Origin: a virus
Direction: 5' to 3' (one strand)
Virus record (IMG/VR): IMGVR_UViG_3300020057_000496
Location: 32,001 to 96,000 of that record
Length of the DNA: 64,000 nt
Below, piece after piece: positions 11,746 through 53,440 of the stretch (the first letter of the stretch is position 1; each line of letters starts with the position of its first letter). Under the pieces are notes generated by a model. That model was not told the DNA's origin and ran no database searches. It was given only the letters and a program-made list of their open reading frames with translations. The position numbers and the translations under genes are program-made.

Positions 11746-12792
11746 GTGGTACTTACGTTTCGCTACCGTGTCAAGAAGCCCGGTGTGCTCCCCGCGAAAG
11801 CGCGCGCCGTCAACTTCGTCTGGAACTACTGCGGCGACGTGCAGAATCAGGCACGACGCTGGGCGCGACGCTGGCCCAGCGGCTTTGACCTCTGCAAGCT
11901 CGCCGCTGGATCGACGCGACTGCTCGAACTGCACTCCGACACCGTGCAGGACATCGCCAGGCACTTCGCTCGCTCGCGCGACACGAAGCGCCGTCGGCCA
12001 CGATGGCGCGCCTCGCAGGGGTCTAAGCGTGCGCTCGGCTGGGTTCCCTTCCAGTCCGCGCGTGCCATCCATCTCGACCAAAGCGGCGTGACCTACCTCG
12101 GGACTCGCTACCGACTCTGGATGCATCGCCCAGTCGAGGGCCGCGTGCTCTCTGGGTCGTTCAGTGAAGATGCGCGCGGTCGGTGGTACCTGAACCTGCA
12201 GTGCGAAGTCGAGCCCGCTGCCGCGCGCGCTGGCGAAAGTGTCGGCATCGACCTCGGGCTGAAGACGTTCGCCACGATGTCCAACGGCGAGACGATCGAG
12301 AACCCCCGACACTACCGTCGCGAGGAAGCCGCACTCGCCATCGCGCAGCGGGCTGGTCACAAGCAGCGAGCGAAGGCGATCAACGCCAAGATTTCCAATC
12401 GAAGGAAGCACGACCTGCATGTCGCCTCGCGGCGACTGGTCGATCGCTTCGCCACTATCGTTGTCGGCAACGTGAACGCCGCCAGTCTCGCCAGGACTCC
12501 GCTCGCAAAGAGCGTGCTCGACGCTGGCTGGTCGATGTTCCGTGGGATGCTCCGCTACAAAGCCAACAGGCACGGCGTGACCTACGTAGAGGCTGACGAG
12601 CGATTTTCGACGCAGACCTGTTCCGAGTGCGGAAGCCTCGGCGGCCCGAGAGGGCTGGAGGGTCTCGCAGTAAGGGAATGGGTGTGCGAGCACTGCGCTG
12701 CGGTCCACGACCGCGACGTCAATGCCGCTCGAAATATCCTGTTCTCGGGGCAGAACGTTGTCCTCCACTTGACGGAAAGCCCCAGCCTTTAG
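11746..12792 (+). CDS. tnpB: TnpB RNA-guided nuclease (IS200/IS605), rearranged RuvC-II
   Basis: VGIDLGLK, IVVGNV, ADERFSTQTCSEC, CEHC, HDRDVNAARNI; no tnpA adjacent. Confidence 0.95.
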   Translation: MVLTFRYRVKKPGVLPAKARAVNFVWNYCGDVQNQARRWARRWPSGFDLCKLAAGSTRLLELHSDTVQDIARHFARSRDTKRRRPRWRASQGSKRALGWVPFQSARAIHLDQSGVTYLGTRYRLWMHRPVEGRVLSGSFSEDARGRWYLNLQCEVEPAAARAGESVGIDLGLKTFATMSNGETIENPRHYRREEAALAIAQRAGHKQRAKAINAKISNRRKHDLHVASRRLVDRFATIVVGNVNAASLARTPLAKSVLDAGWSMFRGMLRYKANRHGVTYVEADERFSTQTCSECGSLGGPRGLEGLAVREWVCEHCAAVHDRDVNAARNILFSGQNVVLHLTESPSL

Positions 12793-12809
12793 GCCGGGGA
12801 AGACGTTAC
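12750..12809 (+). mobile_element. IS605-type right end hairpin (omegaRNA 3' end)
   Basis: GGAAAGCCCCAGCCTTTAGGCCGGGGAAGACGTTAC. Confidence 0.8.
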
Positions 12810-38804: not shown

Positions 38805-38829
38805 TATGGTTACGATGGAGTATGATTTA

Positions 38830-39015
38830 TCAACATAGGTTAAGGAACTTAATGTCGTAAATCCAGGAACCATTAGATATCCGTGGTGGTAGATGGTACG
38901 GGCAGTACGGGTAATCATTACACCTAAAATACAACCCACTCCCTACCTTACAGTAAACCACGCACTTAGCACGACCATATGGGGTTACGTGCCCTGTAAA
39001 TATTCTATATAACAT
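38830..39015 (-). CDS. array micro-ORF (MLYRIFTGH; Cys/His type)
   Basis: 61 aa. Confidence 0.75.
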   Translation of the reverse strand: MLYRIFTGHVTPYGRAKCVVYCKVGSGLYFRCNDYPYCPYHLPPRISNGSWIYDIKFLNLC

Positions 39016-39553
39016 TTAGGACACGAAGGACGAAGGTTCGGATCCTAGCTAGAACGAAGTCACGGTCCGAGAACTCCTCTTCTGAGATTTCAAGGAGACT
39101 TATTCTACGTTCCAGCAGGAAGAGTCTCTTATTCGAACCACTCCGGATACTGCCCTTGGTGGCGTGCCAGAAGGACCCGTTGGCCTCTATGGCTAGATGG
39201 AGGGCTGGGAGCCAGCAATCCACTACGTACTTCTCGCCAACCAGGGCCTGCTCTTCGTATTCGAACCCCAGTTCCTGCTGAAGTTCGAGCAGGACGTCGT
39301 TAAGGGCATCTTCGATCCAAGTCCGTGGCATGCTACGGACGGCACAGAGGTGCGAGCAATACCGGTCCCTTCCGCGTCTCATATTGCCAGCCTTACGGTA
39401 TAGCGGAAGGCCGCATTCGAGGCAAGTGGAGAGTCCGCCGCCGCGACGTCCGGCGTCCCACTGCTCCCATATCTTGCGGCAGACCTGGCCGCAGAAGGTG
39501 GTCAGCCTCCGTGACGACAAGAAGGGGTAGCTACAGGAAAGACAGAACCGCAT
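39005..39553 (-). CDS. Zn-finger + Vsr/DUF559-like PD-(D/E)XK endonuclease (homing-endonuclease-like)
   Basis: CxxC..FCxxxC repeats, IEDAL..YEEQ..YVVDCW..LAIEANGSFWH. Confidence 0.75.
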   Translation of the reverse strand: MRFCLSCSYPFLSSRRLTTFCGQVCRKIWEQWDAGRRGGGLSTCLECGLPLYRKAGNMRRGRDRYCSHLCAVRSMPRTWIEDALNDVLLELQQELGFEYEEQALVGEKYVVDCWLPALHLAIEANGSFWHATKGSIRSGSNKRLFLLERRISLLEISEEEFSDRDFVLARIRTFVLRVLNVI

Positions 39554-39730
39554 TGGTGCATCCTTGTTGAGTCGTACTTCGACTTACTTACGACGGAAGA
39601 ATTAGTGCAATCGATATTTGATTCGCCCAAGTCCACCATTAGGATACCTGACTAAGGTCAAGGCCCCCAGAACACCGAGATTCAGCCTGGGCACGGTCCG
39701 CTAACCCAGTAAGCTGTTTTAATATTAGAA

Positions 39731-39943
39731 TTACCAAACGAAGTAGTGCTGTTTTCCTTCAACATATCGCCAAGCCTGGAAGCTTCTGGGGGACCTCGTG
39801 AAGTGATTCCGGCATTTCGGGTGTTCTGTGCACAGATATGTCCCTTCCCCTGGATGCCCCTCAACACGCGGGCCGATCTTCAGCACGCATGGATAAAACC
39901 CTGGGTCAGCGTACAGGTAGTCTGTTTTTATGTGATATAGCAT
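39731..39943 (-). CDS. array micro-ORF (Cys/His type)
   Basis: 70 aa MLYHIKTDY. Confidence 0.8.
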   Translation of the reverse strand: MLYHIKTDYLYADPGFYPCVLKIGPRVEGHPGEGTYLCTEHPKCRNHFTRSPRSFQAWRYVEGKQHYFVW

Positions 39944-40070
39944 TATGGACCCGAAGGGGACAGAAGCATTATGGACCCGAAGGGGACAGAAGCATTATGG
40001 ACCCGAAGGGGACAGAAGCATTATGGACCCGAAGGGGACAGAAGCATTATGGACCCGAAGGGGACAGAAG
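39941..40070. repeat. 26 bp tandem repeat x5
   Basis: (cattatggacccgaaggggacagaag)5; 2 more copies at 41444-41495. Confidence 0.95.
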
Positions 40071-40089
40071 GATTATTAAGACCGGCTAA

Positions 40090-40524
40090 TTACACAACTC
40101 TGATCCAGTCCTTTTTAACCCAAGAGTACCAATTGCGTCAAGCTCCGTCACCAGAAGTCATCGCTTCTTGCCCCCTGGCGCCCGATTCCGGCAACTGTTG
40201 CCGGAATCGTTGCCGGAATGGGCGGCCGGAAACCGGGGAAGCGGTACGAGTCGGAGAGATGACGGCGAGGTCTCGGCAATGGCATCGCGCAATCATGCCG
40301 AGTTTTCGCAGCGGCTCAACCCCTCCCTGAGCCGCTTCCGGAGCGGGTTTTCTCCTTCTCAACCCTGCTCGGCTACCCACTCAAACCCCCGAAGAGCCAA
40401 TATTAAGAAAGAGGTCCGAAGTATTCAGACAGTCGAGGTCCGAAGTATGCAGACAGCCACTGAACGCACAAAGCCAGGAGCCGACAGCCAAAACTAGATA
40501 ATCTGTTCGAATAGTATATAACAT
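40090..40524 (-). pseudogene. array micro-ORF interrupted by ~240 bp GC-rich insert
   Basis: MLYTIRTDYL...DLFLNIGSSGV* (40381-40524) and separated tail RNWYSWVKKDWIRVV* (40090-40137). Confidence 0.7.
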
Positions 40525-40549
40525 GAGATGTCGTACTTCGACTCATGAA

Positions 40550-40747
40550 TCATGCGTTCATTATTAGGAAGTTCCCGTTAACCGTACAGACCCACTTATT
40601 TTTATGCAGACGGCACGCGCCGTCGAGACATGTTATATATATAAATGGGTCCCAGCCTTGCTTTCCCGGAAAATAGACCAACCGTATACAGCTTGCTGCG
40701 CCGTTACCAGCAGTGCCTAGCCAATTTGTTTTGATAGTATACAACAT
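40550..40747 (-). CDS. array micro-ORF (MLYTIKTNW; Cys/His type)
   Basis: ATG 40747. Confidence 0.75.
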   Translation of the reverse strand: MLYTIKTNWLGTAGNGAASCIRLVYFPGKQGWDPFIYITCLDGACRLHKNKWVCTVNGNFLIMNA

Positions 40748-40794
40748 GGGTAGTTTAAGTAACAACCACGTGTCGCACCTGACACCGAAGGGGC

Positions 40795-40989
40795 CTACTT
40801 AACCCGAAGCCAGCCCCCCCGGGTCCAGGAGTACCACATAGAACTACCTTTTGGTATCGAAGGTCTGAGAAAAGGCCTGTTGATATTCATAAAGAAATCC
40901 GGTGTCCCCCAGTACTCCGAGAACGCCTGAAGCTCGGCACCGAAGTCCGAAGCCGGAACTAAATAGTCTGTTTTAATGTGATATAACAT
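40795..40989 (-). CDS. array micro-ORF (ELQAF type)
   Basis: 64 aa. Confidence 0.8.
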   Translation of the reverse strand: MLYHIKTDYLVPASDFGAELQAFSEYWGTPDFFMNINRPFLRPSIPKGSSMWYSWTRGGWLRVK

Positions 40990-41011
40990 GCGGCACCTAC
41001 GTTAAGGGGCC

Positions 41012-41209
41012 TTACCGGACGCGAACCCAGGTCTTCCTAGCCCAGGAGTACCACATCGAACCACCTTCTGGTATCGGATATTCGCATTTAATGGACCTTT
41101 CAATATTAATAAAGAAGTCCGGTGTCCCCCAGTAATCCGGGAACGCCTGAAGCTCGGCTTTAAGACTCATAGCCGGAATTAAATGGTCTGTTCGAATATG
41201 ATACAGCAC
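41012..41209 (-). CDS. array micro-ORF (ELQAF type)
   Basis: 65 aa. Confidence 0.8.
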   Translation of the reverse strand: MLYHIRTDHLIPAMSLKAELQAFPDYWGTPDFFINIERSIKCEYPIPEGGSMWYSWARKTWVRVR

Positions 41210-41215
41210 GGCGCA

Positions 41216-41446
41216 TCACACTAGTGGCTTAAAATCCAGGATATACGTCTTATTTCTACTACACCGGACCCACTGGTTCGGCTTCATGATCCTTTTTTTC
41301 CTAACTACGCACAGAGTAGTCCGAAGACTAATTCGATAATACAGTATATTGAGCGGCGCATTTTCTAGCTCAATATCGAACACGCATTTTTCTAACCCGT
41401 ATACCCCGGACACGACCAGGTAGCTCGTTCTGAGTTTATATAGCAT
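41216..41446 (-). CDS. array micro-ORF (MLYKLRTSY)
   Basis: 76 aa. Confidence 0.75.
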   Translation of the reverse strand: MLYKLRTSYLVVSGVYGLEKCVFDIELENAPLNILYYRISLRTTLCVVRKKRIMKPNQWVRCSRNKTYILDFKPLV

Positions 41447-41618
41447 TATGGACCCGAAGGGGACAGAAGCATTATGGACCCGAAGGGGACAGAAGGATTA
41501 CGGACACGAAGCGGCCGGAAGGATTATTAAGACCGGCTAGTTACACAACTCTGATCCAATCCTTTTTAGCCCAAGAGTACCAATTGCGTCAAGCTCCGTC
41601 AAGCTCCGTCAAGCTCCG

Positions 41619-41900
41619 TCAAGCTAGCAGGTAGAGGGACGGCAGCATGGTTGTGAGGATCTTGAGTCGCAGGTACTCCTCATCACGTAGGCCGCCGAAT
41701 TCTATATAGATCCTATTGATACAACCGGCCCCATGTTTATGCCTGACCAGACAAAGACGGAGCCTAAAGCGAGAGAGGCTATTTTCTTGATAGGGCAAAG
41801 CTAAGCTGAAACGGAACGCAAATCCATAATTCGAATAGTACATAACAAATAAAGGGTTATTTGGCATATGCAGGTAGTCTGTTTTAATGTGATACAACAT
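41619..41900 (-). CDS. array micro-ORF (MLYHIKTDY)
   Basis: 93 aa; ends in gtcaagctcc repeats. Confidence 0.75.
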   Translation of the reverse strand: MLYHIKTDYLHMPNNPLFVMYYSNYGFAFRFSLALPYQENSLSRFRLRLCLVRHKHGAGCINRIYIEFGGLRDEEYLRLKILTTMLPSLYLLA

Positions 41901-41925
41901 GAGATGTTAATACTTCGACATCGAG

Positions 41926-42111
41926 CTATCTTACTCGAACCCACACAGGTCGGCCGTTTACCGTTGCCAGAATGCAATGCTTCTTAGTTATCTTATTATA
42001 GGCCAGATGTTCAAGTCCGTGTTCATCCCGGAACGCATCAAGAAACGCTGACATCACCCTGGACACGCTATACGTGGGCGTGAAGTAGTCTGTTCGAATA
42101 TGATATAACAC
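41926..42111 (-). CDS. array micro-ORF (LDAF type)
   Basis: GTG start 42111. Confidence 0.8.
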   Translation of the reverse strand: MLYHIRTDYFTPTYSVSRVMSAFLDAFRDEHGLEHLAYNKITKKHCILATVNGRPVWVRVR

Positions 42112-42189
42112 ATAGACACAAATAAGGAAAAGTTCACACGAAATAGTAACATTTTCCATTCATATTTCGCCAGGCCATAAGCGGGAGCA

Positions 42190-42229
42190 TTGACATCCTC
42201 CCCGCCCTAAAGGACGAGGATTCCTACTG
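42190..42229 (-). mobile_element. IS605 right end of second tnpB
   Basis: minus strand GGAATCCTCGTCCTTTAGGGCGGGGAGGATGTCAA. Confidence 0.85.
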
Positions 42230-43262
42230 CTAGCGTCGCATGCCCGCGACGGAGAATGTTCTTGGCGGCATTCACATCACGATCGTGACGTGTGCCGCAC
42301 TCCGAACAAGTCCATTCCCTTATTCCAAGACATGTAATACCTTTCGGCCTCGACTCGGGGAGTGATCCGCAAGACGAGCATGTTTGGGTGGAGTACGCTT
42401 CGTTGACCTCAACGAACAACACGCCAGCGTTTTCGCTTTTGTAATGCAGCATTGTTCGGAACGACGACCAGCCTGCATCTAAGACGGACTTTGCCATTTT
42501 AGTTTTTGCAAGGCCGGAGGCGTTCACATTACCAACGAAGATCGCACCATTCTCACTCACGAGATTGGTGCTCAGTTTGTGCAGGAAGTCTTTCCTGCGG
42601 TTTGCTATTTGAGCGTGAATCGTTTTGACTTGTTTCGTCTTGTTAGCACGCTGCGCCGTTGCCAGCTTGACCTCTGCACCACGGTAAAGGCGCTGCGCTT
42701 CGATTTTCACGCCATTAGACATTGTAGCGAAGTCTTTCAAACCAAGATCAATGCCAACGGATGCAACGCCGGTCGATTTTGCTACAGCAACTTCGACGCA
42801 GATATTGGCGTACCAACGGCCACGAGTATCTTGGCTGAAACTGCCGGAACCTAATTTGTATTGGTCTAGTCCGTAACTATCCCATAACCCAAAGCACTGA
42901 CCCGCATAGCGTATCTGACCGCCTTTGTAGGCGATGCAGTCATGTCGGAATGGAATCCAGCCCAAGGACTTGCGCGCACCAAATGACGTGCGCCAGCGCA
43001 GCTTGGCTTTCTTGAACTGCTTGCGACGCGTAACTAGTTCAGCACCGATCATTTGTACCGATGCTGAATTGATTGACAATCCTTCCTTCGTTGCTCCTGC
43101 AGTATATTTTTGCAGGTCGTAACTACTGAAGAATTTACCAGTGCGTCGGAGGTGTTTATAGGATAGTTCATTGCAGTAATTCCACACCGTATTGACATCC
43201 AACGCCAAGGCATCGAGTGCCTTAGCGTGTTTGTCTTTGATACGGACTCGCAATGTTTTCAT
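42207..43262 (-). CDS. tnpB: TnpB RNA-guided nuclease, rearranged RuvC-II
   Basis: VGIDLGLK, IFVGNV, VNEAYSTQTCSSC, CSEC, HDRDVNAAKNI. Confidence 0.95.
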   Translation of the reverse strand: MKTLRVRIKDKHAKALDALALDVNTVWNYCNELSYKHLRRTGKFFSSYDLQKYTAGATKEGLSINSASVQMIGAELVTRRKQFKKAKLRWRTSFGARKSLGWIPFRHDCIAYKGGQIRYAGQCFGLWDSYGLDQYKLGSGSFSQDTRGRWYANICVEVAVAKSTGVASVGIDLGLKDFATMSNGVKIEAQRLYRGAEVKLATAQRANKTKQVKTIHAQIANRRKDFLHKLSTNLVSENGAIFVGNVNASGLAKTKMAKSVLDAGWSSFRTMLHYKSENAGVLFVEVNEAYSTQTCSSCGSLPESRPKGITCLGIREWTCSECGTRHDRDVNAAKNILRRGHATLAVGILVL

Positions 43263-43264
43263 GT

Positions 43265-43486
43265 TTAAACTAGGCGGACAATTGCATTAGCTTGAAGCAA
43301 CCAGGGAACACCACGCGACTGTTCTGGATGAATCAAGCAGTGGTCGTTATGACACTGATATAGCCCCTGGCGACTGTCGTCAGCCGAGAGGGGTTCTGCC
43401 CTTAACGCCGAGGTGAAGCTCGCCGAGATACAGGGAACGTAGTTCCGGTGCTTAGTCCAGTAGTCTGTTCGAATAGAATACAACAT
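43265..43486 (-). CDS. array micro-ORF (MLYSIRTDYW; Cys/His type)
   Basis: ATG 43486. Confidence 0.8.
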   Translation of the reverse strand: MLYSIRTDYWTKHRNYVPCISASFTSALRAEPLSADDSRQGLYQCHNDHCLIHPEQSRGVPWLLQANAIVRLV

Positions 43487-43526
43487 CAATATCTCTCCAC
43501 GGAGGTGTGGATCACCATCGTCGTTT

Positions 43527-43709
43527 TCAAACGAGAACGACATAATCGTGGTTTTTATACGAGAACGATATACAGGCGCTCGTATCTCCCTGCCAATAAG
43601 TAAATAGCCTCAAGTTATACTCGCCAGTGTAATCTCGCATGGCACATAAGTTCTTTGTTGGGTCAAGGCCCACTGCCACAAAGTGGTCGGTTCTAATTTT
43701 ACACAGCAA
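43527..43709 (-). CDS. array micro-ORF (MLCKIRTDH)
   Basis: TTG 43709. Confidence 0.7.
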   Translation of the reverse strand: MLCKIRTDHFVAVGLDPTKNLCAMRDYTGEYNLRLFTYWQGDTSACISFSYKNHDYVVLV

Positions 43710-43710
43710 G

Positions 43711-43804
43711 GTGAGGTGTCGATACTTCGATACCGTGAGGTGTCGATACTTCGATACCGTGAGGTGTCGATACTTCGATACCGTGAGTGTCGCACTTCGA
43801 TACC
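43711..43804. repeat. 24 bp tandem expansion of the intergenic hairpin motif (x3 + 1 degenerate)
   Basis: (gtgaggtgtcgatacttcgatacc)3. Confidence 0.9.
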
Positions 43805-43813
43805 GAGGTGAGA

Positions 43814-44041
43814 TCACCTAAAATAAACAGTAATATCTAAATCACTATTGATGATTCTAAATCTAGTTTTATGATATATACTGGAGTGCGTAGCGCTACT
43901 GGAGTGCGTAGCGCAACTGTCATTACGGCAGAACCTCATCTCGTACCGCAGGGGCCTCCCGGAATCAAAGGCCATCTCTAGACAATGAAGAAATGACGGA
44001 ACGTTCGCCACGAGATAGTCCGTTCTTATTATGTACAGCAC
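43814..44041 (-). CDS. array micro-ORF (MLYIIRTDY; Cys/His type)
   Basis: 75 aa. Confidence 0.8.
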   Translation of the reverse strand: MLYIIRTDYLVANVPSFLHCLEMAFDSGRPLRYEMRFCRNDSCATHSSSATHSSIYHKTRFRIINSDLDITVYFR

Positions 44042-44043
44042 GG

Positions 44044-44253
44044 CTATCTTAACTCAACCCAGGCACTTAGTCTCCACGAAAACCACACAGAGCGGCGGGG
44101 CTTGAGCCCGCCCGGACGTCCACTGAAATCATGCGCGGAATCCACATTTAGGAACAAGTCTCCGGTGCCGTTCATGTCGGCAAAGGCTCGCAGATTGATT
44201 CCTGGCACGTCAGATGTCGTGCTTAAATAATCCGTTCTGATGTGGTACAACAT
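44044..44253 (-). CDS. array micro-ORF (LRAF..GTGDL..WFSW type)
   Basis: 69 aa; motif encoded by wholly synonymous codons. Confidence 0.8.
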   Translation of the reverse strand: MLYHIRTDYLSTTSDVPGINLRAFADMNGTGDLFLNVDSAHDFSGRPGGLKPRRSVWFSWRLSAWVELR

Positions 44254-44360
44254 ACCCTAAATAAAATATAACATTACGGATACGGAGTAGACGTAAGGAC
44301 CACGAACACTCAGCGTCGAGTCGTACTTCGATTCATCGGAAATCCTCTCGGCGGAGACCG

Positions 44361-44421
44361 GGGCAGAACGTTGTCATCACTTGGCGGAAAGCCCCAGCCT
44401 TCAGGCCGGGGAAGACGTTAC
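44361..44421 (+). mobile_element. orphan copy of the first tnpB's right end
   Basis: gggcagaacgttgtc..cactt..cggaaagccccagcctt.aggccggggaagacgttac, near-identical to 12748-12809. Confidence 0.85.
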
Positions 44422-44989
44422 CAGCGCGACGAAGCCGGTCCCACTCGGCTTGCACCTCCGGCAGCGATGACGTTGCCGCGTCCGCGTCGCCGAGCGGCTC
44501 GAGCGCGCGCCGACGAACGCTGTACGTCTTTCCGGTCCCGGGCGGCCCGTACAGGATGATGTTCGACGCCGGGCCAGTCGGCGTGTAGGTCTTCGCGGGC
44601 GTAGCGGTGGCGACCGTGTTGGTCTGCACGTCGCGCAGGATGGCGTCGATGCCGATCTTGAACTGCTGTGCCTCGGCCTCCGTGATCTCGCGCAGCTCCG
44701 GCGCCGCCGACAACTCCGGCGCCTGCATCATCGGTAGCCGGCGCCAGTAGAGTTGCGTCTCCTTCCCGCCGTCGAGCGCCAGCACGCGGGCGAGCGCGAC
44801 GACGCTATCGCCATCATGCAGAGCGATCACGTGGCCCGCGCGGATGCCCTCTTGAAAGAGCTTCGACGGTACGGCGTACGACGCGGGCAAGTCGCTCACG
44901 CGCACCTCGTCCTTCGCGGCGAGTTGGGCCCGCTGCTCGGCGGGCGCGATGTCCTTTAGAGGTACGAACCAGAAGCGGGCGTTACTCAT
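44422..44989 (-). pseudogene. mcrB: 3'-truncated McrB-like AAA+ GTPase
   Basis: NIILYGPPGTGKTY, then cut by the IS end. Confidence 0.7.
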
Positions 44990-47963
44990 CGCTCGCCCTC
45001 TCACTGCCAAACAGGCTCGACCAGCCGCCTGCGCGTTCAATGCATTGATCGATCTCGCTCGAGACCTCAACGAGTCGACCGCAGGCCTCAACGATCGAGC
45101 GGAAGGTGGCGATCTCCTCGTCAGACAGCGAACGCTCGTTCTTGCGCCGATCGTCGAGCCACTTATGACAGACCTGATAGGCCCCGATGGTAAACTCCCA
45201 CGAGGCAACGGGAACGGCGTCGAAGTAGCTCGTCGCGTTGATGAACAGACGCCCCTGCGACGCGCTGGGTGCCGTGAGTCGCATGGTCTTACCCCCCTCG
45301 CCGACCTTGGTTACTTCGCGGTCCGCGCCGTTGAACTTCGCCAACGCCCTAGGCGCCGCTACCTCCAACAAGTATGCGGACGCGAGCTGTCCTCCAAGCT
45401 CGCTCAGCTCGTGAAACGCGACCAACGTCGGGGGGACCGGAATCTTCGGGAAGTCCACCTGCAGCATGTCCAGGTACCGTTTCCGGTACTCAGGCGAGTG
45501 CAGGATCGCGACGATGTAGTCGAAGAGCAGTTCCGGCCACGAAGTCACTCCGCGAGAGGTCGGCCACTTGCTGCGTGGGCCAAGCGTCTGCTCGAAGCGC
45601 GCCACAGCACTCTCCGCGAAGTTGGCGACGCGGAGTGCTCCATCGGCCTCCGGGCTCAAGTACAGAGGGAACGCGTAGCCACGCTCCCTGCTCCTATTGG
45701 AGACGCAACTGTCATCGACGATGCGGTCGGCTACCAGCACATGGCTCCAAGTTGGGCTGACGATCTGGCGACAGACCATGAGGCAGCGATTGGTGGCCAC
45801 GGGGCGAAGATGAACAAAGACATCTTCCCGCGGCCAGTCGACCATCCAAGGCGCGTAGTAGACGTGCCGCGTGTCGAAGGGCCTGTAGAGGCACGGCTCG
45901 GGGCGAGTGCGCCACTGCCGGTCAGCCGCCACCTTCTTTCGAGCCTCGGAGAGTTTCCATCCCCTGGTATCGCCCGGCGGATATTTGCCTTCGCTTCGTT
46001 CTCCGAAAAAGCGGGAGCGAACTGCCGCATCGCTGACGGACGCGTCGCGAAAATCCTCGATGCGGTCGAGAAGGCTTTCGGCATCGAAGTCGACCACCAA
46101 ACCGTCGCGCGCGGTGATGAGCCCAGTCGTCGAGGTGGCCATCAGGTCGGTCACTTTGATGAACGTGGCAAAGTCTGCGCTTCCTCCCGCCTGCCACGGG
46201 AAGAAGAAGTAGTAGGGAGTGGAGGGCGCAAGCGCTGCGAGCCGGCCAGCGCCGGCCTCCAGCAGCGCCAGCTTCTCTTTCCTCACTCCCCAGACGTCTC
46301 GATGAAGCACGACAGACGTCGGAGCGGTGGACGAGGAAGGCGTCGCGCTGCGGACCATGATGGCGATCGCAACGCCCTGCTGAATCTGGAAGACGTTCTC
46401 GTCGGTGACCCCTTTCGGCATGCGTCGGCGATTCTTCGTGCTCCCATTCAGATCGATCACCTTAATTCGAGGGAACGTGCGCATGAGTTGCTGACGCATT
46501 CCTCGGAACGTCGGGTTGGAGAGGTAGCCGTTGTTCGTGACCATTCCCACGACGCCGAGCCCGGAGCACTCGATCCGCCACTGCGCCATACGGATGAACT
46601 TTACGTAGTCATCGTTCAGCCAGAGCTTCTTCTCGCCAAGCGACTGCCCATCGACCTCGTAGTAGCTGCCCGTCGCTTGGTCGGACGGCGACACGCCCTT
46701 CAACAGCCCGACGATCCATCCTCCGTTGTTCTGTGAGACGGCAGCGTACGGCGGGTTGCCGACGACCACGGTGATGGCCGCGCGAACCTTGGTTTCCTCC
46801 GCTAGGCGGGACTCGTCGGCCACATTCGCGCCCAGCATTTCGAGTTGCTTGCCGGTGTGCGGTTCGAGCGAGTTCGTAAGGAACACCCGCAGTCGATCGT
46901 TCTTCGCGAACGTGAAGCCGGTCTCCTGCAGCGCGAGGCCGAGCCGCAGGTGGCTTACGATGTATGGCGCCATCATCAGCTCGAAGCCGTTGATGCGCGG
47001 GAGCAGATCACGGCGGACGTAGCCGACCCACGCCTTCTTTGCGGCCTCCTCGTCGAGTCCCTGCTTCTTGAACTCGGCCTGCATCGTTTCGTGGATGACC
47101 TCGATGACGCGCAGGAGGAACGTGCCCGTGCCGAGCGCCGGGTCGAGCACCTGGACGAACGCAGCCTTCGGGTCGACGCCCTCGGGCACGCTGAGGTTCT
47201 TCGCCTTGGCGAAGGCCGCCCACGTCGTCGTGTCGGCGAGGCCGAGCGGAAGACCGAAGTCGCTCCGCAACGACGCGTGCGCCGTGCGCACGATGTAGCT
47301 GACCACCTCGTCGGGCGTGTAGTAGACGCCCTGGTCCCTGCGGAGCTGAGGGTCGTAGGCGTCGAGGAAGTCTTCGTAGAAGTGGATCGACGGGTCGCGC
47401 TTCTGGTCGCGGAAGACCTGCGCCACCGAGGTCCGCGCGAGCAGGCTCGTGATGTCGTCGAGCAGCCACGAGAGGTTCTTGTCGAAGTTGGAGTTGACCA
47501 GCTTGTCGAACAGGTCCTTGAGGAACGCGCTCGTCTCGGGGAGCAGATCCTTCAGGTTCTTGCGCGTGAACAGCGGGCTCTCGCTCCTCGAGATCCAGCG
47601 CGCGGCCAACATGCCGTAGGTGACGGTTTGCGCGTAGGCGTCGGCGAACTTCTCGACGCTGAGGGTCGCGAGCGCCTGATTGCAAATGTCGAAGAGCTGT
47701 TTCAGTGGGCCACCCCCGCGCGCGATCTCGCGCTCCAGCTCCTCGATCGCGATCGCCTTCAAATGGCGGGCACGCCAGGCGAGTTCGGTGGCGAGCTGGG
47801 CAGGCTTCTCAACCGCGCGCGGCACCGAAGCCGTGCCGTCGCTATCACTGCCGAAGACGTCGTCGCCGCTGAACGCAGCGCTCGAGGCCTTCTTCTGCGC
47901 TCGTTTTGGGGCAGCCGGTGCACCGTCGAGAATGCGGCGGACGAACTCTTCTTTGCTCAGCAT
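44982..47963 (-). CDS. type ISP/IIG-like N6-adenine methyltransferase + specificity domain (GC-rich, host-derived)
   Basis: FADAYAQTVTYG, HFYEDFL..YD, GVYYTP, LDPALGTGTF, GNPPY, LYRPFD, IGAYQVCHKWL; no N-terminal nuclease/helicase evident. Confidence 0.88.
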   Translation of the reverse strand: MLSKEEFVRRILDGAPAAPKRAQKKASSAAFSGDDVFGSDSDGTASVPRAVEKPAQLATELAWRARHLKAIAIEELEREIARGGGPLKQLFDICNQALATLSVEKFADAYAQTVTYGMLAARWISRSESPLFTRKNLKDLLPETSAFLKDLFDKLVNSNFDKNLSWLLDDITSLLARTSVAQVFRDQKRDPSIHFYEDFLDAYDPQLRRDQGVYYTPDEVVSYIVRTAHASLRSDFGLPLGLADTTTWAAFAKAKNLSVPEGVDPKAAFVQVLDPALGTGTFLLRVIEVIHETMQAEFKKQGLDEEAAKKAWVGYVRRDLLPRINGFELMMAPYIVSHLRLGLALQETGFTFAKNDRLRVFLTNSLEPHTGKQLEMLGANVADESRLAEETKVRAAITVVVGNPPYAAVSQNNGGWIVGLLKGVSPSDQATGSYYEVDGQSLGEKKLWLNDDYVKFIRMAQWRIECSGLGVVGMVTNNGYLSNPTFRGMRQQLMRTFPRIKVIDLNGSTKNRRRMPKGVTDENVFQIQQGVAIAIMVRSATPSSSTAPTSVVLHRDVWGVRKEKLALLEAGAGRLAALAPSTPYYFFFPWQAGGSADFATFIKVTDLMATSTTGLITARDGLVVDFDAESLLDRIEDFRDASVSDAAVRSRFFGERSEGKYPPGDTRGWKLSEARKKVAADRQWRTRPEPCLYRPFDTRHVYYAPWMVDWPREDVFVHLRPVATNRCLMVCRQIVSPTWSHVLVADRIVDDSCVSNRSRERGYAFPLYLSPEADGALRVANFAESAVARFEQTLGPRSKWPTSRGVTSWPELLFDYIVAILHSPEYRKRYLDMLQVDFPKIPVPPTLVAFHELSELGGQLASAYLLEVAAPRALAKFNGADREVTKVGEGGKTMRLTAPSASQGRLFINATSYFDAVPVASWEFTIGAYQVCHKWLDDRRKNERSLSDEEIATFRSIVEACGRLVEVSSEIDQCIERAGGWSSLFGSERASDE

Positions 47964-48045
47964 GCTTCCTCACTCGGTCTCACGGGCACAGTCTCGTCGA
48001 GGCGACGAAGCTGAAGGATTCGAAAGCCACTGACTAACAAATACC

Positions 48046-48255
48046 CTATCTGAGGTATATATAGCATGCCGGGCTTACCTTTTTCCGATCGTAGAGCCAA
48101 TTAGCATGCGGCAGCCCACTGTGCGCCCAGCCGTTACATAATTTAAGCGACGGACAGTGACTAAATACCCTGTCTGTGTCGACGAACGCCCCGACGGTAC
48201 AGGACCCCTGATAGGAGAGCGCCACGATATAGTCTGTTCGAATGTGATATAGCAT
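48046..48255 (-). CDS. array micro-ORF (MLYHIRTDY)
   Basis: 69 aa. Confidence 0.8.
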   Translation of the reverse strand: MLYHIRTDYIVALSYQGSCTVGAFVDTDRVFSHCPSLKLCNGWAHSGLPHANWLYDRKKVSPACYIYLR

Positions 48256-48312
48256 TACTAGACAAATTTCTATAAAACGAGCTTCCGTACATCTGCACAG
48301 CAGACAGAAGGA

Positions 48313-48549
48313 CTAGCGCATCCTGAACCAGTACCTACCTCCACAACCCAATACGTCCCCGATACTAGGGACAATAGTCTCGTCCGTATCGTTATGTATG
48401 CCGAATTTCGTTTTTATCGAACCTAATATAAGGGTATACCCTACGGTCATGTTCGAGTAGCTGTCGGCAGTAAATGCTAACTGACGGTTCCCGTCCGCCC
48501 TGATGTTACGAAACTGAGTCCAGTAGTCAGTTCTGAGACGGTATAGCAC
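48313..48549 (-). CDS. array micro-ORF (MLYRLRTDYW..WFRMR)
   Basis: 78 aa. Confidence 0.8.
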   Translation of the reverse strand: MLYRLRTDYWTQFRNIRADGNRQLAFTADSYSNMTVGYTLILGSIKTKFGIHNDTDETIVPSIGDVLGCGGRYWFRMR

Positions 48550-49006
48550 TGGCGTTCAATTCTCCGATTAACCGTAGGGCCTTCTGTGGAACGAAGTAAG
48601 CCTCCTCGCGACCGCCGTACTCCTGCAGGAACGCCCCGTCCTTGGCTTGGTCTGAATGAATCCAGCCGCGCACGACATAGCCTGGGGCTTGGCCTGTTAC
48701 AAGGACATAGACACCGGAAGGATCACCTTTTCGAACAATGAGTTCATAGGAGTGCCGGGACCGTGTTCGGACATAAACCGGGCCAACGTCCGGGCGCTTG
48801 AAGGTATCCACGCTGGAGTCATAGTACCACCCGACCGCCTTCGCAAAGGCCATCTCGCCGCACGCGCCTTCGAGGTGATACTGCCACGCCATGTCCCCCT
48901 TGCCGCCGTGTTTATCTTCTACCTGCCTGGACAGCGCCGAGACGTGTCGCATCACGCCGACGAGTGCACCGGCCATTACCTCGCTACTTGTTAATTTGAC
49001 GTTCAC
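48527..49006 (-). CDS. hypothetical phage protein (possible PD-(D/E)XK-like)
   Basis: GACGEMAFAK..PDVG..VRT. Confidence 0.65.
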   Translation of the reverse strand: MNVKLTSSEVMAGALVGVMRHVSALSRQVEDKHGGKGDMAWQYHLEGACGEMAFAKAVGWYYDSSVDTFKRPDVGPVYVRTRSRHSYELIVRKGDPSGVYVLVTGQAPGYVVRGWIHSDQAKDGAFLQEYGGREEAYFVPQKALRLIGELNASAIPSQN

Positions 49007-49226
49007 GCTTGTTCAGGTGCTTGCCGTAACCAACTGGTACTCTAAATATAACAGTAAGCCCGCCCGGCTTCCAGGCATAAAGACGCCCACGCTTCAGGCT
49101 GTCCACATAGATAGTTTTTGTATGTGCGTCTATGTCGTCGCCGTGAGGGTCGGTATGAACCGGATACCATACCGCCAGGAAGACTGCCGAATCTCTTTTA
49201 TAATAACAGGACAAAGAATACAGCAT
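48984..49226 (-). CDS. divergent first array member (MLYSLSCYY)
   Basis: preceded by the gtcgatacttcg motif at ~49234. Confidence 0.5.
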   Translation of the reverse strand: MLYSLSCYYKRDSAVFLAVWYPVHTDPHGDDIDAHTKTIYVDSLKRGRLYAWKPGGLTVIFRVPVGYGKHLNKRERQINK

Positions 49227-49272
49227 AAACAAGTCGATACTTCGGCCAGGGCGTACTCAGCAGTAAGTTATA

Positions 49273-50055
49273 CTAGATTTTGCCGTAGTCAGTAGTCCAT
49301 TCGTCGATACCGTTGACGGACTCTTGCCGGTAGTCATCGAAGAGTGCCGGCCATGTCTTGACACAGATCTTGGCGACTTCGTTGAAGACGAGCCGGATTT
49401 CTTCTTCGGCGTGGCGACTTGTCCGCATCTCGATCACATGCCGGAGTGTTCGAATATTAGCAGACCACCCGACGGTAGTAGCCAGGCCCTCGGGCGCGAT
49501 CCGGCGCATAGCCGAAGTAATTTCCTTCTTGAGAGAGAAGTTCTTCATGTTATCCAGGTCAAAGATCTGGGCAAGCTCGATCTGCATGTCTTCACATAAG
49601 GCTGCGATCTTTTCGAACCTTTCCATAGCTTGTACGTTCTGCTCGATGACAGTCGGAATGAACATCCTTAACTTATCAAGTCGAACATACCGGAGGCTCT
49701 CTTGAGATATCGCGGTGCCGACACGATGACGCACCAGCTCATGGGTGGTGACCCTAGAGATGTTATGTAGGACGAAGTTCCCCGTAACGTGTTCTGTCAG
49801 ACTCCCGTGCTTGCTTGATTTGATGTTTGAAAGATAGTCGTTAATATCAGTACGAACCCGCGTTACGTTTGGATTTAGTCCGACCAAAAACGAGCGATAG
49901 CAAACGCGCCCGTAGAATTCGACTAGTTCTTCGCCGTCAGTCAAGGCAGACGACTCGTAATCAGCAGCGTCGATTTCGGCCAGGAATCTGTTTATTTCAT
50001 CATGGTCAATTGTGGTCTGGCCGACGAGAAATACGGAAGGAGTAACATGTTTCAT
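49273..50055 (-). CDS. thyX: flavin-dependent thymidylate synthase
   Basis: H.S..EH, SRVTTHELVRHRVG..SQESLRY, NIRTLRH...R...HAEEEIR. Confidence 0.95.
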   Translation of the reverse strand: MKHVTPSVFLVGQTTIDHDEINRFLAEIDAADYESSALTDGEELVEFYGRVCYRSFLVGLNPNVTRVRTDINDYLSNIKSSKHGSLTEHVTGNFVLHNISRVTTHELVRHRVGTAISQESLRYVRLDKLRMFIPTVIEQNVQAMERFEKIAALCEDMQIELAQIFDLDNMKNFSLKKEITSAMRRIAPEGLATTVGWSANIRTLRHVIEMRTSRHAEEEIRLVFNEVAKICVKTWPALFDDYRQESVNGIDEWTTDYGKI

Positions 50056-51787: not shown

Positions 51788-52081
51788 ATGGCACAATTAC
51801 AACGGGCAGCGGAACACCGGAACGCCAGGCTGGAGCGGAAGGTGCGTGAGCTTGCCAAGGTAATCGGCATGCGCAGCAGCTACGGCGTGATGCGGTTCGG
51901 CGGCTTCGAGGGGCACAAGTTCCCGACCTACCGGTCGTTCGGCGATTTCCTGGTCCGCCAGGGCTTCTTACGGGAAGAGGGGCGGGAATTCGTCCTGGCG
52001 TACACGCTGCCGACGCCTGCTCCTCCGCAGGCGCCGTCTACCAAGACGGTCGGCTGGCATCCGGCCCAGTTGCGGCCTTAG
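51788..52081 (+). CDS. hypothetical protein
   Basis: ATG directly after promoter. Confidence 0.55.
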   Translation: MAQLQRAAEHRNARLERKVRELAKVIGMRSSYGVMRFGGFEGHKFPTYRSFGDFLVRQGFLREEGREFVLAYTLPTPAPPQAPSTKTVGWHPAQLRP

Positions 52082-52128
52082 TAGCTCCAAAGTGCAAATG
52101 TCCGGTTTCTCCAATTTAGAAATGTCCT
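52081..52128 (+). mobile_element. possible isolated IS (ISNCY/IS1202-like) end
   Basis: two ctccaa..aaatgtcc direct repeats 23 bp apart at the border of the GC-rich mosaic. Confidence 0.3.
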
Positions 52129-52282
52129 GTTCCGGGCCACACGGGTGGCATGACGGAGCACGTGACATTGAGGTCGCCGCTCGCATCATGCACCTCACCT
52201 GGAACCCAGTCACCCTGCCCGAGGCAGAGGATGTTCATGCGCGTGTCGGACAGGCTCCACGCCCCGTCGGGAGGGCGGTCTG

Positions 52283-52858
52283 ATGGCCCTGGCACCGTCC
52301 AGCAGGCACCATGAAGGGCTCAAGGCCGCCCGGCTGCTGATGGTGCTCAGCAGCATCTCGCCGCTCTTCATCCTGTGGGCGCTCCGCGGGAACAGCCTCA
52401 TCCCGGACCGCTGGTTCATTGGCTTCTGCGGGCTGATGGTTGTCGTCCCGAACGCCTTCCTTTGGCTGCGAATTCGAACGGCGAAGAAGCAGGCCGACAA
52501 GCGCGATCTCACGGTGGGCACGGCCGACGACCGCCGCGACCACATCCTCGGGTACCTGTTCGCGATGTTGCTGCCGTTCTACTCCGAGGACCTCGGCACC
52601 TGGCGCGACCTCGGCGCGACGGTCGCCGCGCTGGCGTTCATCGTGTTCCTGTTCTGGCACCTGAACCTGCACTACATGAACCTGATCTTCGCAGCGCGTG
52701 GGCTCCGGGTCTTCACGGTGTACCCGCCGGCCGATGGGAACGCGCTCACCGGGAAGACCCGTTACGCCCTTATCACGCGCCGGGTCAGCCTGGCATCCGG
52801 CGAGCGGCTCGTCGCCTACCGGTTGAGCGATACCGTGTATCTGGAGGCCGACGCATGA
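52283..52858 (+). CDS. kwaA: Kiwa KwaA-like membrane protein
   Basis: 4 TM segments, GYLFAMLLPF, HYMNLIF..G.RVF; coupled to a DUF4868-like start. Confidence 0.6.
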   Translation: MALAPSSRHHEGLKAARLLMVLSSISPLFILWALRGNSLIPDRWFIGFCGLMVVVPNAFLWLRIRTAKKQADKRDLTVGTADDRRDHILGYLFAMLLPFYSEDLGTWRDLGATVAALAFIVFLFWHLNLHYMNLIFAARGLRVFTVYPPADGNALTGKTRYALITRRVSLASGERLVAYRLSDTVYLEADA

Positions 52859-53004
52859 AGTTGGAGTTCGACCTCGGGAACGTGACGGTCACGGAGTTCG
52901 GCGTCGGGCGCGACGAAGGCAACGGGCAATCCTTCGTCGCGGTGCCGGTGGATCTGATGGCGTCCCACAAGTCGGCGCTGGACACGGCGAGGGGGCCCTG
53001 GTAG
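52855..53004 (+). pseudogene. truncated Kiwa KwaB (DUF4868) N-terminus
   Basis: MKLEFDLGNVTVTEFGVGRDEGNGQSFVAVPVD, then unrelated sequence. Confidence 0.5.
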
Positions 53005-53123
53005 ACGGGATGCGTGGCTGGGGGGCCGCATCAGGGGCCGATTTACATAATCTGGATGTATCGGACAGCAGCGCCGCTTGTAGTTCGGTCGTCGTCATGT
53101 TCGCCACTCCTTCTGCCAATGCC

Positions 53124-53440
53124 CTACGCAGCAAACACTTCCTCAAGCTCAAGCTGCAGTGCTGGTGTTTTCTTGCCCAGGCCGACCACAGCGGCCAGCT
53201 CATCGGCGGGGACGTTGGCCAGTTCCTTCGGTTCGAGCTTGTGCATTCCGCCGCCGTACACGCGGCCATTGCCGAGCAGCGTTTCCCTATCTACCGCGTT
53301 GAGAGCCTTCCACAGTGGGCGCAGCGCCGCAGGGTCGCGGGCAAGTTCCTTCGCCAGCAGTGGCTTCGGGTAGAGGCACAAATAGACGTTCGTGGCTGTC
53401 GCTTTGCTGTTGTTGAGCAGGAAGCGGAACGGTCGCCTCA
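53124..53440 (-). pseudogene. C-terminal fragment of XamI/Eco57I-like DNA methyltransferase
   Basis: RPFRFLLN.S.ATATNVYL.LYPK...GRVYGGGMHKLEPKEL. Confidence 0.65.

What the first reader, a model, noticed from the sequence alone, without database searches (positions are those of the whole stretch)
44333..48030. TnpB right-end copy fused to 3.6 kb of captured host restriction locus
Seen: a ~60 bp copy of the first tnpB's right end abuts a GC-rich block holding an apparently intact type ISP-like MTase/TRD gene (no nuclease evident) and an McrB-like gene cut after Walker A. The flank in guide position (cagcgcgacgaagccggtcc) is mcrB sequence. Inference: IS605-end-mediated transduction of defence-island DNA. 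Possible benefits are a protective methylase, a dominant-negative McrB, or a guide directing TnpB to the host mcrB.
Basis: partly seen in the sequence, partly recalled or inferred. Interest (0 to 1): 0.7.

Follow-up and report, generated by a model that had tools for sequence, protein, structure and literature searches.

The report
Phage-captured methylase beside a mini-transposon
A large phage carries 3.7 kb of bacterial defence DNA next to an 85-bp remnant of an IS605-type transposon. It keeps the DNA-methylase part of a restriction enzyme and has lost the nuclease-like part, which is a familiar phage counter-defence trick, and sister strains have already deleted almost all of it.

Summary
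Window 44337-48034 is foreign, GC-rich DNA (62-68% against about 47%) in one intergenic spacer of a phage small-gene array.

- **The "TnpB right-end copy"** is an 85-bp non-autonomous IS200/IS605 derivative at 44337-44421. It consists of a left-end tip plus 65 nt of tnpB 3' end and right end, and it sits after a TCAT motif.
- **The RE junction.** The right-end tip abuts codon 189 of a McrB-like gene, just past Walker A.
- **The methylase.** The 993-aa gene is 87% identical to about 1355-aa bacterial proteins of a conserved SNF2/methylase/McrBC island. It has lost about 365 codons in frame, including a domain with the fold of the DrdV endonuclease domain. The methylase motifs and the specificity domain are intact.
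- **Not an assembly artefact.** Five related phage contigs from other assemblies carry the same three junctions. All five have deleted about 3.39 kb of the insert, so the methylase is dispensable.
- **Guide idea.** A TnpB guide aimed at host mcrB is poorly supported: 8 of 8 host homologues lack the TCAT motif beside the target.

My best reading is an IS-associated capture that gave an orphan, possibly protective, methylase that is now decaying. This is a new example of known kinds. Other first-stage notes on this same genome flagged the same stretch. I found no note on other DNA.

The parts
44254..44336 (-). Phage intergenic DNA on the left of the insert. It carries the phage's recurrent tcgaagtacgac hairpin motif (reverse complement at 44320-44331) and ends in TCAT (44333-44336), the transposon-adjacent motif.
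   Evidence: The motif recurs at 10 or more places in the phage. TCAT or GCAT flanks the LE at 5 independent sites.
44337..44421 (+). An 85-bp non-autonomous IS200/IS605 derivative. Positions 44337-44359 are the LE tip (cggaaatcctctcggcggagacc). From about 44357 to 44421 it is tnpB 3' end plus RE with the terminal hairpin, ending in gacgttac. The LE subterminal hairpin ccggacttcagtccgg is missing.
   Evidence: The RE part is 94% identical to the tnpB1 RE. The LE identity rests on L103, where the same tip plus hairpin lies next to the C-terminus of an antisense Y1 transposase. Sister mini-copies are in G000, L026/L101 and L104.
44422..44989 (-). The first 189 codons of a McrB-like AAA+ gene: N-terminal domain plus Walker A GPPGTGKT. 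The ORF then reads through the mini-IS for about 29 further codons to a stop at 44333-44335.
   Evidence: Residues 1-121 are 76% and residues 124-190 are 53% identical to the L007 McrB-like protein. Homology stops at AG|QIVFCTFH. It is contiguous with L025 at the DNA level.
44982..47963 (-). A 993-aa N6-adenine methylase plus Type ISP-type specificity domain, with motif I DPALGTGTF and motif IV GNPPYA. It derives from a roughly 1355-aa Type IIL/IIG-like protein by an in-frame loss of about 365 codons.
   Evidence: Pfam and PADLOC hits. It is 87% identical to P0002 over aa 50-993, matching 414-1358. The nearest relatives are 1352-1358 aa.
47815..47825 (-). Scar of the in-frame deletion, between codons 48 and 49 (ASVP|RAVEKP). 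Host residues about 51-415 are missing.
   Evidence: Alignments. The missing part has the DrdV endonuclease-domain fold over host residues about 239-411 (Z 10.6, rmsd 3.7 A, 137 aligned).
47964..48034 (-). 71 bp of host DNA upstream of the methylase start. This is the 3' end of the host SNF2-helicase gene with the native ribosome-binding site. It is the right edge of the insert.
   Evidence: blastn and alignment to L022, L024, L025 and L007.
48035..48045 (-). 11 nt of phage spacer between the insert and the stop codon of the small-gene paralogue at 48046-48255.
   Evidence: The same junction occurs in L111-L115.
44491..47882 (.). The segment of about 3.39 kb that is deleted in five related phage contigs. 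Methylase codon 27 is joined to about codon 167 of the McrB piece. There are two junction variants that differ by 2 nt.
11746..12809 (+). tnpB1 with its right end. It is the full-length relative of the RE part of the mini-element and the likely cognate TnpB.

Best explanation
Shown:
- A phage of about 167 kb carries 3.7 kb of bacterial defence-island DNA in one intergenic spacer of its small-gene array.
- The insert comes from a conserved island with the order WYL regulator - SNF2 helicase - fused restriction/methylase protein - McrB - McrC and further genes.
- It runs from 71 bp upstream of the methylase gene to codon 189 of the McrB-like gene.
- At the McrB end it is joined, to the base, to the right-end tip of an 85-bp miniature IS200/IS605 element. 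The left-end tip of that element abuts phage DNA at a TCAT motif.
- The methylase gene has lost about 365 N-terminal codons in frame, including a domain with a restriction-endonuclease fold. The AdoMet and NPPY motifs and the whole specificity domain are kept.

Inferred:
- The phage, or a phage ancestor, acquired the DNA through an event at the transposon's right end. Candidate routes are recombination with a host-borne copy of the same IS, repair of a break made at the RE cleavage site, or read-through transposition.
- The product is a nuclease-less orphan methylase, transcribed with the phage array. It marks phage DNA with the donor system's own specificity and so shields it from that system.
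- The McrB stub and the ωRNA-like remnant are by-products.
- The insert is now being eroded: sister strains keep only about 220 bp of host DNA plus the mini-element.
For: Host origin and edges. Both genes point the same way as the phage array.

Mini-IS identity: the RE part is 94% identical to the tnpB1 RE. The LE tip is shared with G000 120358-120434, L026/L101 and L104, and with L103, where it lies next to a Y1 transposase C-terminus. TCAT or GCAT flanks 5 independent LE sites.

Recombination at IS copies: the same left flank occurs with different right flanks, and the reverse, in L101, L104a and L104b.

IS pool composition: IS-bearing contigs have 63-66% GC, like the host-type contigs.

Methylase integrity: an open frame of 993 aa, 87% identical to P0002 across methylase and specificity domain, with motifs I and IV intact.

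Nuclease-fold domain removed: AF2 model with pLDDT 85.7; residues 199-371 align to DrdV residues 2-143 with Z 10.6. The domain is present in 77 clusters, nearly always at positions about 45-435 of roughly 1300-1390-aa proteins.

Real junctions: five other assemblies share them.

Precedent: lytic lactococcal phage phi-50 acquired a functional methylase domain from the LlaI system of plasmid pTR2030 (PMC4190342, citing Hill et al. 1991).
Against: - Five of six sampled strain-level contigs have deleted the methylase, so it is not needed in most settings.
- A random deletion is in frame one time in three, so the frame is weak evidence of selection.
- No promoter-like site lies inside the block, and expression is unknown.
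- Methylases of this family may need partners, and their activity alone is untested.
- The endonuclease-fold domain shows no obvious (D/E)xK motif in the family alignment. What was removed may therefore not be an active nuclease.
- IS involvement is circumstantial. The McrB site lacks TCAT in 8 of 8 homologues. No tnpA is in the contig. The LE/phage junction is ambiguous by up to about 5 nt.
- The phage holds another host scrap that lies 36 nt from an IS end rather than at it.
- No pre-capture site and no donor carrying the RE/McrB junction were found.
Confidence: 0.55

Rival explanations
1. Neutral scrap. The phage often picks up host DNA by illegitimate recombination. This piece is one such scrap caught part-way through decay, and the methylase is silent or useless.
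For: Five sister contigs have lost about 3.39 kb of it, with two junction variants. Another scrap of 441 bp (3' end of a metallophosphoesterase-GAAD gene plus 14 codons of the next gene, 96% identical to L109) lies elsewhere in the genome. Other first-stage notes report further defence-gene scraps at 52-54 kb (I did not check them). GC has not drifted toward the phage value, which suggests a recent arrival.
Against: The 2.98-kb frame is fully open with intact catalytic motifs. The internal deletion is in frame and removes exactly the non-methylase N-terminal domains. The orientation fits phage transcription, and the native ribosome-binding site is retained.
Confidence: 0.33
2. The IS is a bystander. 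The whole unit (mini-IS, McrB stub, methylase) was copied in one piece from a bacterial or prophage donor by illegitimate recombination at both ends. Alternatively, the mini-IS inserted later.
For: The LE/phage boundary cannot be placed more closely than 44331-44337. The mini-IS belongs to a high-GC gene pool. The McrB junction is not a canonical TCAT insertion.
Against: One insert edge falls within 0-5 nt of the LE tip and the host DNA starts at the exact RE tip. For random breakpoints in 3.7 kb that is unlikely. A later insertion would have needed a TCAT exactly at the phage/host joint.
Confidence: 0.3
3. Weapon or decoy. The remnant makes an ωRNA whose guide (cagcgcgacgaagccggtcc) directs phage TnpB to the host mcrB gene, or the McrB stub poisons the host McrBC complex.
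For: The guide-position sequence is McrB-like antisense. Three full tnpB genes are in the phage. Gene-less IS200/IS605 derivatives (PATEs) are known often to encode ωRNAs used in trans (PMC10055086). The stub keeps the N-terminal domain.
Against: 8 of 8 host homologues read TGCC or TGGC, not TCAT, 5' of the target. Only 65 nt of the tnpB1 scaffold are retained. The fold is no better than shuffled sequence (z +0.97). All five sister contigs carry a C-to-A change in the RE hairpin and have lost most of the stub.
Confidence: 0.05
4. Assembly chimera that joins phage and host reads.
For: This is a metagenome-derived contig. The full-length methylase protein is seen on this contig only. I could not obtain reads.
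Against: All three junctions recur in five assemblies from other samples. The insert returns to the same phage spacer. It carries a domain deletion that none of the full-length host relatives shows. The longest exact repeats shared with tnpB1 are under 20 nt.
Confidence: 0.02

Closest known systems
Phage orphan DNA methyltransferases taken from host restriction-modification systems (for example lactococcal phage phi-50 and the LlaI methylase domain of pTR2030; PMC4190342 citing Hill et al. 1991)
   Same: A virulent-type phage holds a methylase clearly derived from a host defence system, without a working nuclease partner.
   Different: The source here is a fused Type IIL/IIG-like protein of a multi-gene SNF2/McrBC island. 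The nuclease-fold domain was cut out in frame. A transposon end marks one junction. Activity is untested, and most sister strains have lost the gene.
PATEs: miniature, gene-less derivatives of IS200/IS605 elements (PMC10055086; PMC3119063)
   Same: Left-end and right-end sequences of an IS605-family element with no protein gene, lying after a conserved adjacent motif. The RE part carries the 3' end of the ωRNA region.
   Different: The window copy lacks the LE subterminal hairpin, so it is probably immobile. Its two flanks are not contiguous target DNA: one is phage and the other is host. In sister copies the LE supplies a ribosome-binding site to the neighbouring gene.
Type IIL/IIG enzymes MmeI and DrdV (PDB 7lo5)
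   Same: In the host parents the domain order is endonuclease-fold domain, then gamma-class N6-adenine methylase, then specificity domain. They hit PADLOC REase_MTase_IIG (1.7e-175).
   Different: The parents carry an extra domain of about 190 aa of unknown fold in front and sit with SNF2 and McrBC genes. The canonical (D/E)xK motif is not evident. The phage copy lacks both N-terminal domains.
Type ISP enzymes (LlaGI, LlaBIII)
   Same: The C-terminal specificity domain matches Pfam Type_ISP_C, with the same methylase class.
   Different: There is no Mrr nuclease and no helicase in the same polypeptide. In the host the helicase is a separate gene.
One-ended or read-through capture of flanking DNA by HUH-type transposons (IS91/ISCR; from my own knowledge)
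   Same: Captured DNA lies directly beyond the terminating end of the element.
   Different: I do not know of this being documented for Y1 IS200/IS605 elements. No surrogate right end is recognisable at 48034, and no transposase gene is present.

Membership tests
IS200/IS605 non-autonomous element (PATE-like) | Ends shared with an element that encodes TnpA (Y1) and/or TnpB | tested here: met
   The RE part is 94% identical to the tnpB1 RE. The LE tip is identical to the one in L103, which lies next to the TnpA C-terminus (...LWSASYFAASVGGAPLSVLKTYIEGQ).
IS200/IS605 non-autonomous element (PATE-like) | Subterminal hairpins at both ends | tested here: not met
   The RE hairpin is present. The LE hairpin ccggacttcagtccgg, present in sister copies, is absent from 44337-44421. 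This copy is a degenerate derivative.
IS200/IS605 non-autonomous element (PATE-like) | Insertion 3' of a conserved adjacent motif, without a target duplication | tested here: met
   TCAT flanks 4 independent LE sites and GCAT flanks 1. The window copy has TCAT at 44333-44336. No duplication is seen.
IS200/IS605 non-autonomous element (PATE-like) | Flanks form one contiguous target (a simple insertion) | tested here: not met
   The left flank is phage DNA and the right flank is host McrB-like DNA.
Functional TnpB ωRNA with a guide to host mcrB | TAM next to the matching target | tested here: not met
   8 of 8 host homologues have TGCC or TGGC at that place, not TCAT. The true donor is unknown.
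Functional TnpB ωRNA with a guide to host mcrB | Complete scaffold and expression | tested here: inconclusive
   Only 65 nt are shared with tnpB1. The terminal hairpin is kept. There is no Rfam hit. No RNA data were available.
Type IIL/IIG (MmeI/DrdV-like) restriction-modification enzyme | N6-adenine methylase motifs I and IV plus a specificity domain | tested here: met
   DPALGTGTF and GNPPYA are present. Type_ISP_C 2.6e-63. PADLOC REase_MTase_IIG 7e-179.
Type IIL/IIG (MmeI/DrdV-like) restriction-modification enzyme | N-terminal endonuclease domain in the same protein | tested here: not met
   It is deleted in the phage copy. The host parents have the fold (Z 10.6 to DrdV residues 2-143).
Type ISP enzyme | Mrr nuclease and SF2 helicase fused to the methylase and specificity domain | tested here: not met
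   Neither domain is in the 993-aa protein. In the hosts the SNF2 helicase is a separate gene.
McrB AAA+ GTPase | Complete AAA+ core (Walker A and B, lid) | tested here: not met
   Only the N-terminal domain and Walker A are present. Homology ends at codon 189 of about 600.
Phage orphan protective methylase | Methylates phage DNA and protects it from the cognate system | not testable with these tools
   This needs a methylome and plaque assays. Sister strains without the gene exist.

The most novel reading that the evidence does not exclude
The right end of an IS200/IS605 element is a recurrent entry point for host DNA into phage genomes, through transposase nicking or read-through at the RE. 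Here it delivered a self-disarmed restriction enzyme that the phage uses as a shield. The neighbouring ωRNA remnant, now carrying a McrB-matching guide, lets phage TnpB act on the host defence island.
Probability: 0.08. Interest if true: 0.75.

Novelty: new member of a known kind. Interest (0 to 1): 0.42.

Why it matters
This is a well-documented natural series. It runs from a bacterial fused restriction/methylase gene, to a phage copy with the nuclease-fold domain removed in frame, to near-complete loss in sister strains, so it shows a counter-defence gene being gained, trimmed and discarded. It also places an IS605-family end exactly at a phage/host DNA joint, which gives a concrete case for testing whether such ends promote gene capture by phages. 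Finally, the parental SNF2-methylase-McrBC island appears to be an uncharacterised defence system, and the phage methylase offers a handle on its specificity.

Tried and rejected
- **Phage database:** megablast of 43000-49500 against the phage database gave no match.
- **Methylase in viral contigs:** no relative found.
- **ThyX-based relatives:** about 50% identical and not syntenic, so useless for an empty site.
- **Phage right flank:** an exact 31-mer in viral contigs gave nothing.
- **RE 30-mer in metagenome contigs:** 8 loci were found, none with the McrB flank. The sister contigs escape this pattern because of a C-to-A change.
- **RE pattern in bacterial genomes:** not found with up to 3 mismatches in the five genomes holding methylase homologues, nor in 401 genomes of one phylum. 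That means only 'not found in those searched'.
- **N-terminal domain by sequence:** Pfam found nothing even at E 10, and the ESM Atlas had no usable hit.
- **N-terminal domain by structure:** the first AF2 model, from 8 sequences, had pLDDT 44.5 and I discarded it. In the good model the first half of the deleted region (residues about 25-190) found no convincing fold (Z at most 5.5).
- **Rfam:** only a tRNA over the whole window.
- **Rejected idea 1:** that the 27 nt left of the RE copy are a phage 5' UTR module. L103 shows they are the IS left end.
- **Rejected idea 2:** that host DNA always abuts the RE. At the second mini-IS the scrap lies 36 nt away.
Full report
**Setting.** The window is bases 32001-96000 of a 166,852-bp viral contig that is estimated 87% complete. 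Its GC content swings between 46% and 66% in 2-kb steps. The stretch 36-48.5 kb is an array of small minus-strand genes whose products start with MLYHIRTDY. The finding lies inside that array.

- GC jumps from about 0.47 to 0.62-0.68 between about 44300 and 48030.
- Window 44359-44422 matches 12746-12810 at 94% over 65 nt. That target is the 3' end and right end (RE) of tnpB1 (11746-12792 +; OrfB_IS605 and Cas12f1-like_TNB).
- Both copies end in ...gaagacgttac. The RE tip is 44421 and the flank begins at 44422.
- The 993-aa ORF 44982-47963 (-) hits Type_ISP_C (2.6e-63), N6_Mtase and PADLOC REase_MTase_IIG (7e-179).
- Seventeen bases past its stop codon an ORF starts at ATG 44989 with Walker A GPPGTGKT. 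It reads through the RE copy to a stop at 44333-44335.

**Where the block comes from.**
- In reference genomes the nearest methylase relatives are about 50% identical (Xenophilus, Myxococcota MAGs, Rhodanobacter).
- The large protein collection holds three relatives at 83-87% identity, all 1352-1358 aa long.
- Their contigs (L022-L025) share one gene order: SNF2 helicase (about 1480 aa), this methylase, a McrB-like AAA_5 protein, McrC, proteins of about 865 and 327 aa, a UvrD helicase and a further long gene. In L007 a WYL regulator lies upstream.
- blastn of the block against these loci shows homology from window 48034, which is 71 bp upstream of the methylase ATG and inside the 3' end of the SNF2 gene. 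Homology then runs to 44425/44421, contiguous in L025 apart from one gap of about 1.1 kb near the start of the methylase.
- At the right edge the phage reads ...ggtatttgtta|gtcagtgg... where the hosts read ...atcgcc|gtcagtgg....
- At the left edge homology stops at the RE tip. Phage RLRRAG is followed by RE sequence, whereas all eight host homologues continue with G-Q-(I/V)-VFCTFH.

**The methylase is a trimmed gene.**
- Residues 1-49 align to host residues 1-49, and residues 50-993 align to host 414-1358 at 87% identity. There is no frameshift, and motif I (DPALGTGTF) and motif IV (GNPPYA) are present.
- About 365 codons are missing in frame, at ASVP|RAVEKP.
- The missing region is a family hallmark. 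A profile search found it in 77 clusters, nearly always at positions about 45-435 of 1300-1390-aa proteins.
- With a 47-sequence alignment AlphaFold gave pLDDT 85.7.
- Model residues 199-371 align to residues 2-143 of the Type IIL enzyme DrdV, its N-terminal endonuclease domain, with Z 10.6, rmsd 3.7 A and 137 aligned residues. The next best match is a putative restriction-endonuclease domain at Z 6.8.
- The first half of the region has no clear match. I did not see a canonical (D/E)xK motif in the alignment, so the fold is shown but nuclease activity is not.
- The parents therefore have the layout: unknown domain, endonuclease fold, methylase, specificity domain. The phage copy keeps only the last two.

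**The "right-end copy" is a miniature IS.**
- A third copy lies outside the window at genome 120358-120434. It shares with the window copy a further 23-27 nt (tcatc-N-gaaatcctctcggcggagacc) that tnpB1 lacks.
- Exact-pattern scans found the same unit in another viral contig (L026/L101) and in seven more metagenome loci of one sampling series.
- In L103 this segment, followed by the hairpin ccggacttcagtccgg, lies beside the C-terminus of an antisense Y1 transposase (...LWSASYFAASVGGAPLSVLKTYIEGQ). The transposase stop codon sits in the hairpin loop. A 313-nt tnpB 3' fragment and the RE follow. The segment is therefore the left end (LE) of an IS605-type element with divergent tnpA and tnpB.
- The short copies (77-81 nt) are LE+RE derivatives of the kind called PATEs (PMC10055086). 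The window copy (44337-44421) has the LE tip and 65 nt of tnpB 3' end and RE, but it lacks the LE hairpin.
- The DNA left of the LE reads TCAT at four independent sites and GCAT at one. In four cases that motif is the reverse complement of the ATG(A/C) start of an unrelated ORF of 272, 167, 105 or 319 aa. The LE supplies a gagagga ribosome-binding site to that ORF.
- At the window site only an 8-codon frame follows.
- The contig has three full tnpB genes, one tnpB fragment and no tnpA.

**Is the IS responsible for the capture?**
- For:
  - The host DNA begins at the exact RE tip, and the LE tip abuts phage DNA at TCAT.
  - Among related contigs the same LE flank occurs with different RE flanks, and the reverse (L101, L104a, L104b). 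IS copies therefore do serve as recombination joints.
  - IS-bearing contigs have host-like GC of 63-66%.
- Against:
  - The captured DNA lies outside the element, 3' of the RE.
  - All eight intact McrB homologues read TGCC or TGGC, not TCAT, where a canonical insertion would need the motif.
  - The LE/phage joint is ambiguous by up to about 5 nt, because the phage motif is firmly recognisable only from 44331 leftwards.
  - At the second mini-IS a 441-bp host scrap, 96% identical to L109, lies 36 nt from the RE rather than at it. It holds the 3' end of a metallophosphoesterase-GAAD gene and 14 codons of the next gene of a GTPase conflict system.
- I conclude that some RE-specific joining event is needed in any scenario. 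Whether it was recombination with a host IS copy, repair of a transposase nick, or read-through transposition cannot be decided from these data.

**Population evidence.**
- Exact-protein look-ups of the two flanking small genes found five contigs from other assemblies (L111-L115). They are 96-99.7% identical to the window flanks.
- All five carry the same phage/SNF2 joint, the same McrB/RE joint and the same LE/TCAT joint.
- All five lack window 44491-47882. Methylase codon 27 is joined to about codon 167 of the McrB piece. There are two junction variants that differ by 2 nt, in four contigs and one contig respectively. All five also share a C-to-A change in the RE hairpin.
- This rules out a chimeric assembly of the junctions. 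It shows that the insert predates these strains and that the methylase is dispensable.
- The full-length allele is seen only on this contig.

**The guide and decoy ideas.**
- The guide-position sequence is McrB antisense. However, the TAM test fails in 8 of 8 homologues, and only 65 nt of scaffold remain.
- The region folds no better than shuffled sequence (z +0.97), and Rfam has no match.
- The sister strains have mutated the hairpin and lost most of the stub. I put these readings at about 5%.

**Verdict.**
- Shown: captured bacterial defence DNA, real junctions, a PATE-like mini-IS at one edge, a methylase with the endonuclease-fold domain cut out in frame, and decay in sister strains.
- Inferred: IS-associated acquisition (about 55-60%) and a protective orphan methylase that is active in this strain (about 50%).
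- Both parts have close precedents: phage orphan methylases such as that of phi-50 (PMC4190342) and PATEs (PMC10055086). This is therefore a new member of known kinds, of moderate interest.
- Other first-stage notes on this same genome described the same stretch and the second mini-IS. I found no note on other DNA.

Noticed in passing
window 42192-43264 (-); L114 1480-1570: The tnpB2 element is precisely absent from the related contig L114. The empty site reads ...ctagTTTAA|tgctcccgc..., so the adjacent motif is TTTAA. The element has only 2 nt before its ATG and ends in ...ggatgtcaa. This is a natural presence/absence polymorphism of a very compact tnpB element.
   Followed up: partly
L004 6359-6435 (genome 120358-120434); L101; L103; L104: The left end of this IS family carries an outward-facing ribosome-binding site (gagagga). 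It sits so that the TCAT motif is the ATG(A) start of four unrelated ORFs of 272, 167, 105 and 319 aa. Insertions seem to survive only where the LE can replace a gene's own translation start signals.
   Followed up: partly
L004 5882-6322 (genome about 119881-120321): A 441-bp scrap, 96% identical to a bacterial contig of the same sampling series (L109). It holds the last 380 nt of a metallophosphoesterase-GAAD gene plus 14 codons of the GASH gene of a GTPase-centred conflict system, and it lies 36 nt from the RE of the second mini-IS.
   Followed up: yes
L007, L008, L010, L022-L025 (host-type loci): A conserved island of 8 or more genes: WYL regulator, SNF2 helicase, Type IIL-like methylase with an endonuclease-fold domain, McrB, McrC, proteins of about 865 and 327 aa, UvrD, and a further long gene. 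The first 430 residues of the methylase are about 80-90% identical across distant phyla, while the specificity domain is far more diverged. It looks like an uncharacterised, widely exchanged defence system.
   Followed up: partly
window 36294-48261 (-): About 20 small paralogous genes whose products begin with MLYHIRTDY. Most are preceded by a GTCG-AAGTA-CGAC hairpin motif. The insert and tnpB2 both sit in spacers of this array.
   Followed up: no
L101 / L104 (two sites) / L102: The same gene left of the mini-IS occurs with two different right flanks, and one right flank occurs with two different left genes and two element lengths. This shows recombination between IS copies in this phage/prophage gene pool.
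   Followed up: partly
window 36731-36890, 39944-40077, 41447-41528: Tandem 26-nt repeats (tacgtacgcgaaggggacggaagcat and a variant) lie directly upstream of three of the small genes.
   Followed up: no
window 10511-10735 and genome 26647-27384: A tnpB C-terminal fragment of the tnpB2/tnpB3 type lies about 1 kb upstream of tnpB1. A third full tnpB lies outside the window. A tRNA gene is at 9681-9753.
   Followed up: no
window 52000-54100: A second GC-rich block (62-67%). Another first-stage note calls it a mosaic of defence-gene scraps. No copy of this IS end is near it.
   Followed up: no
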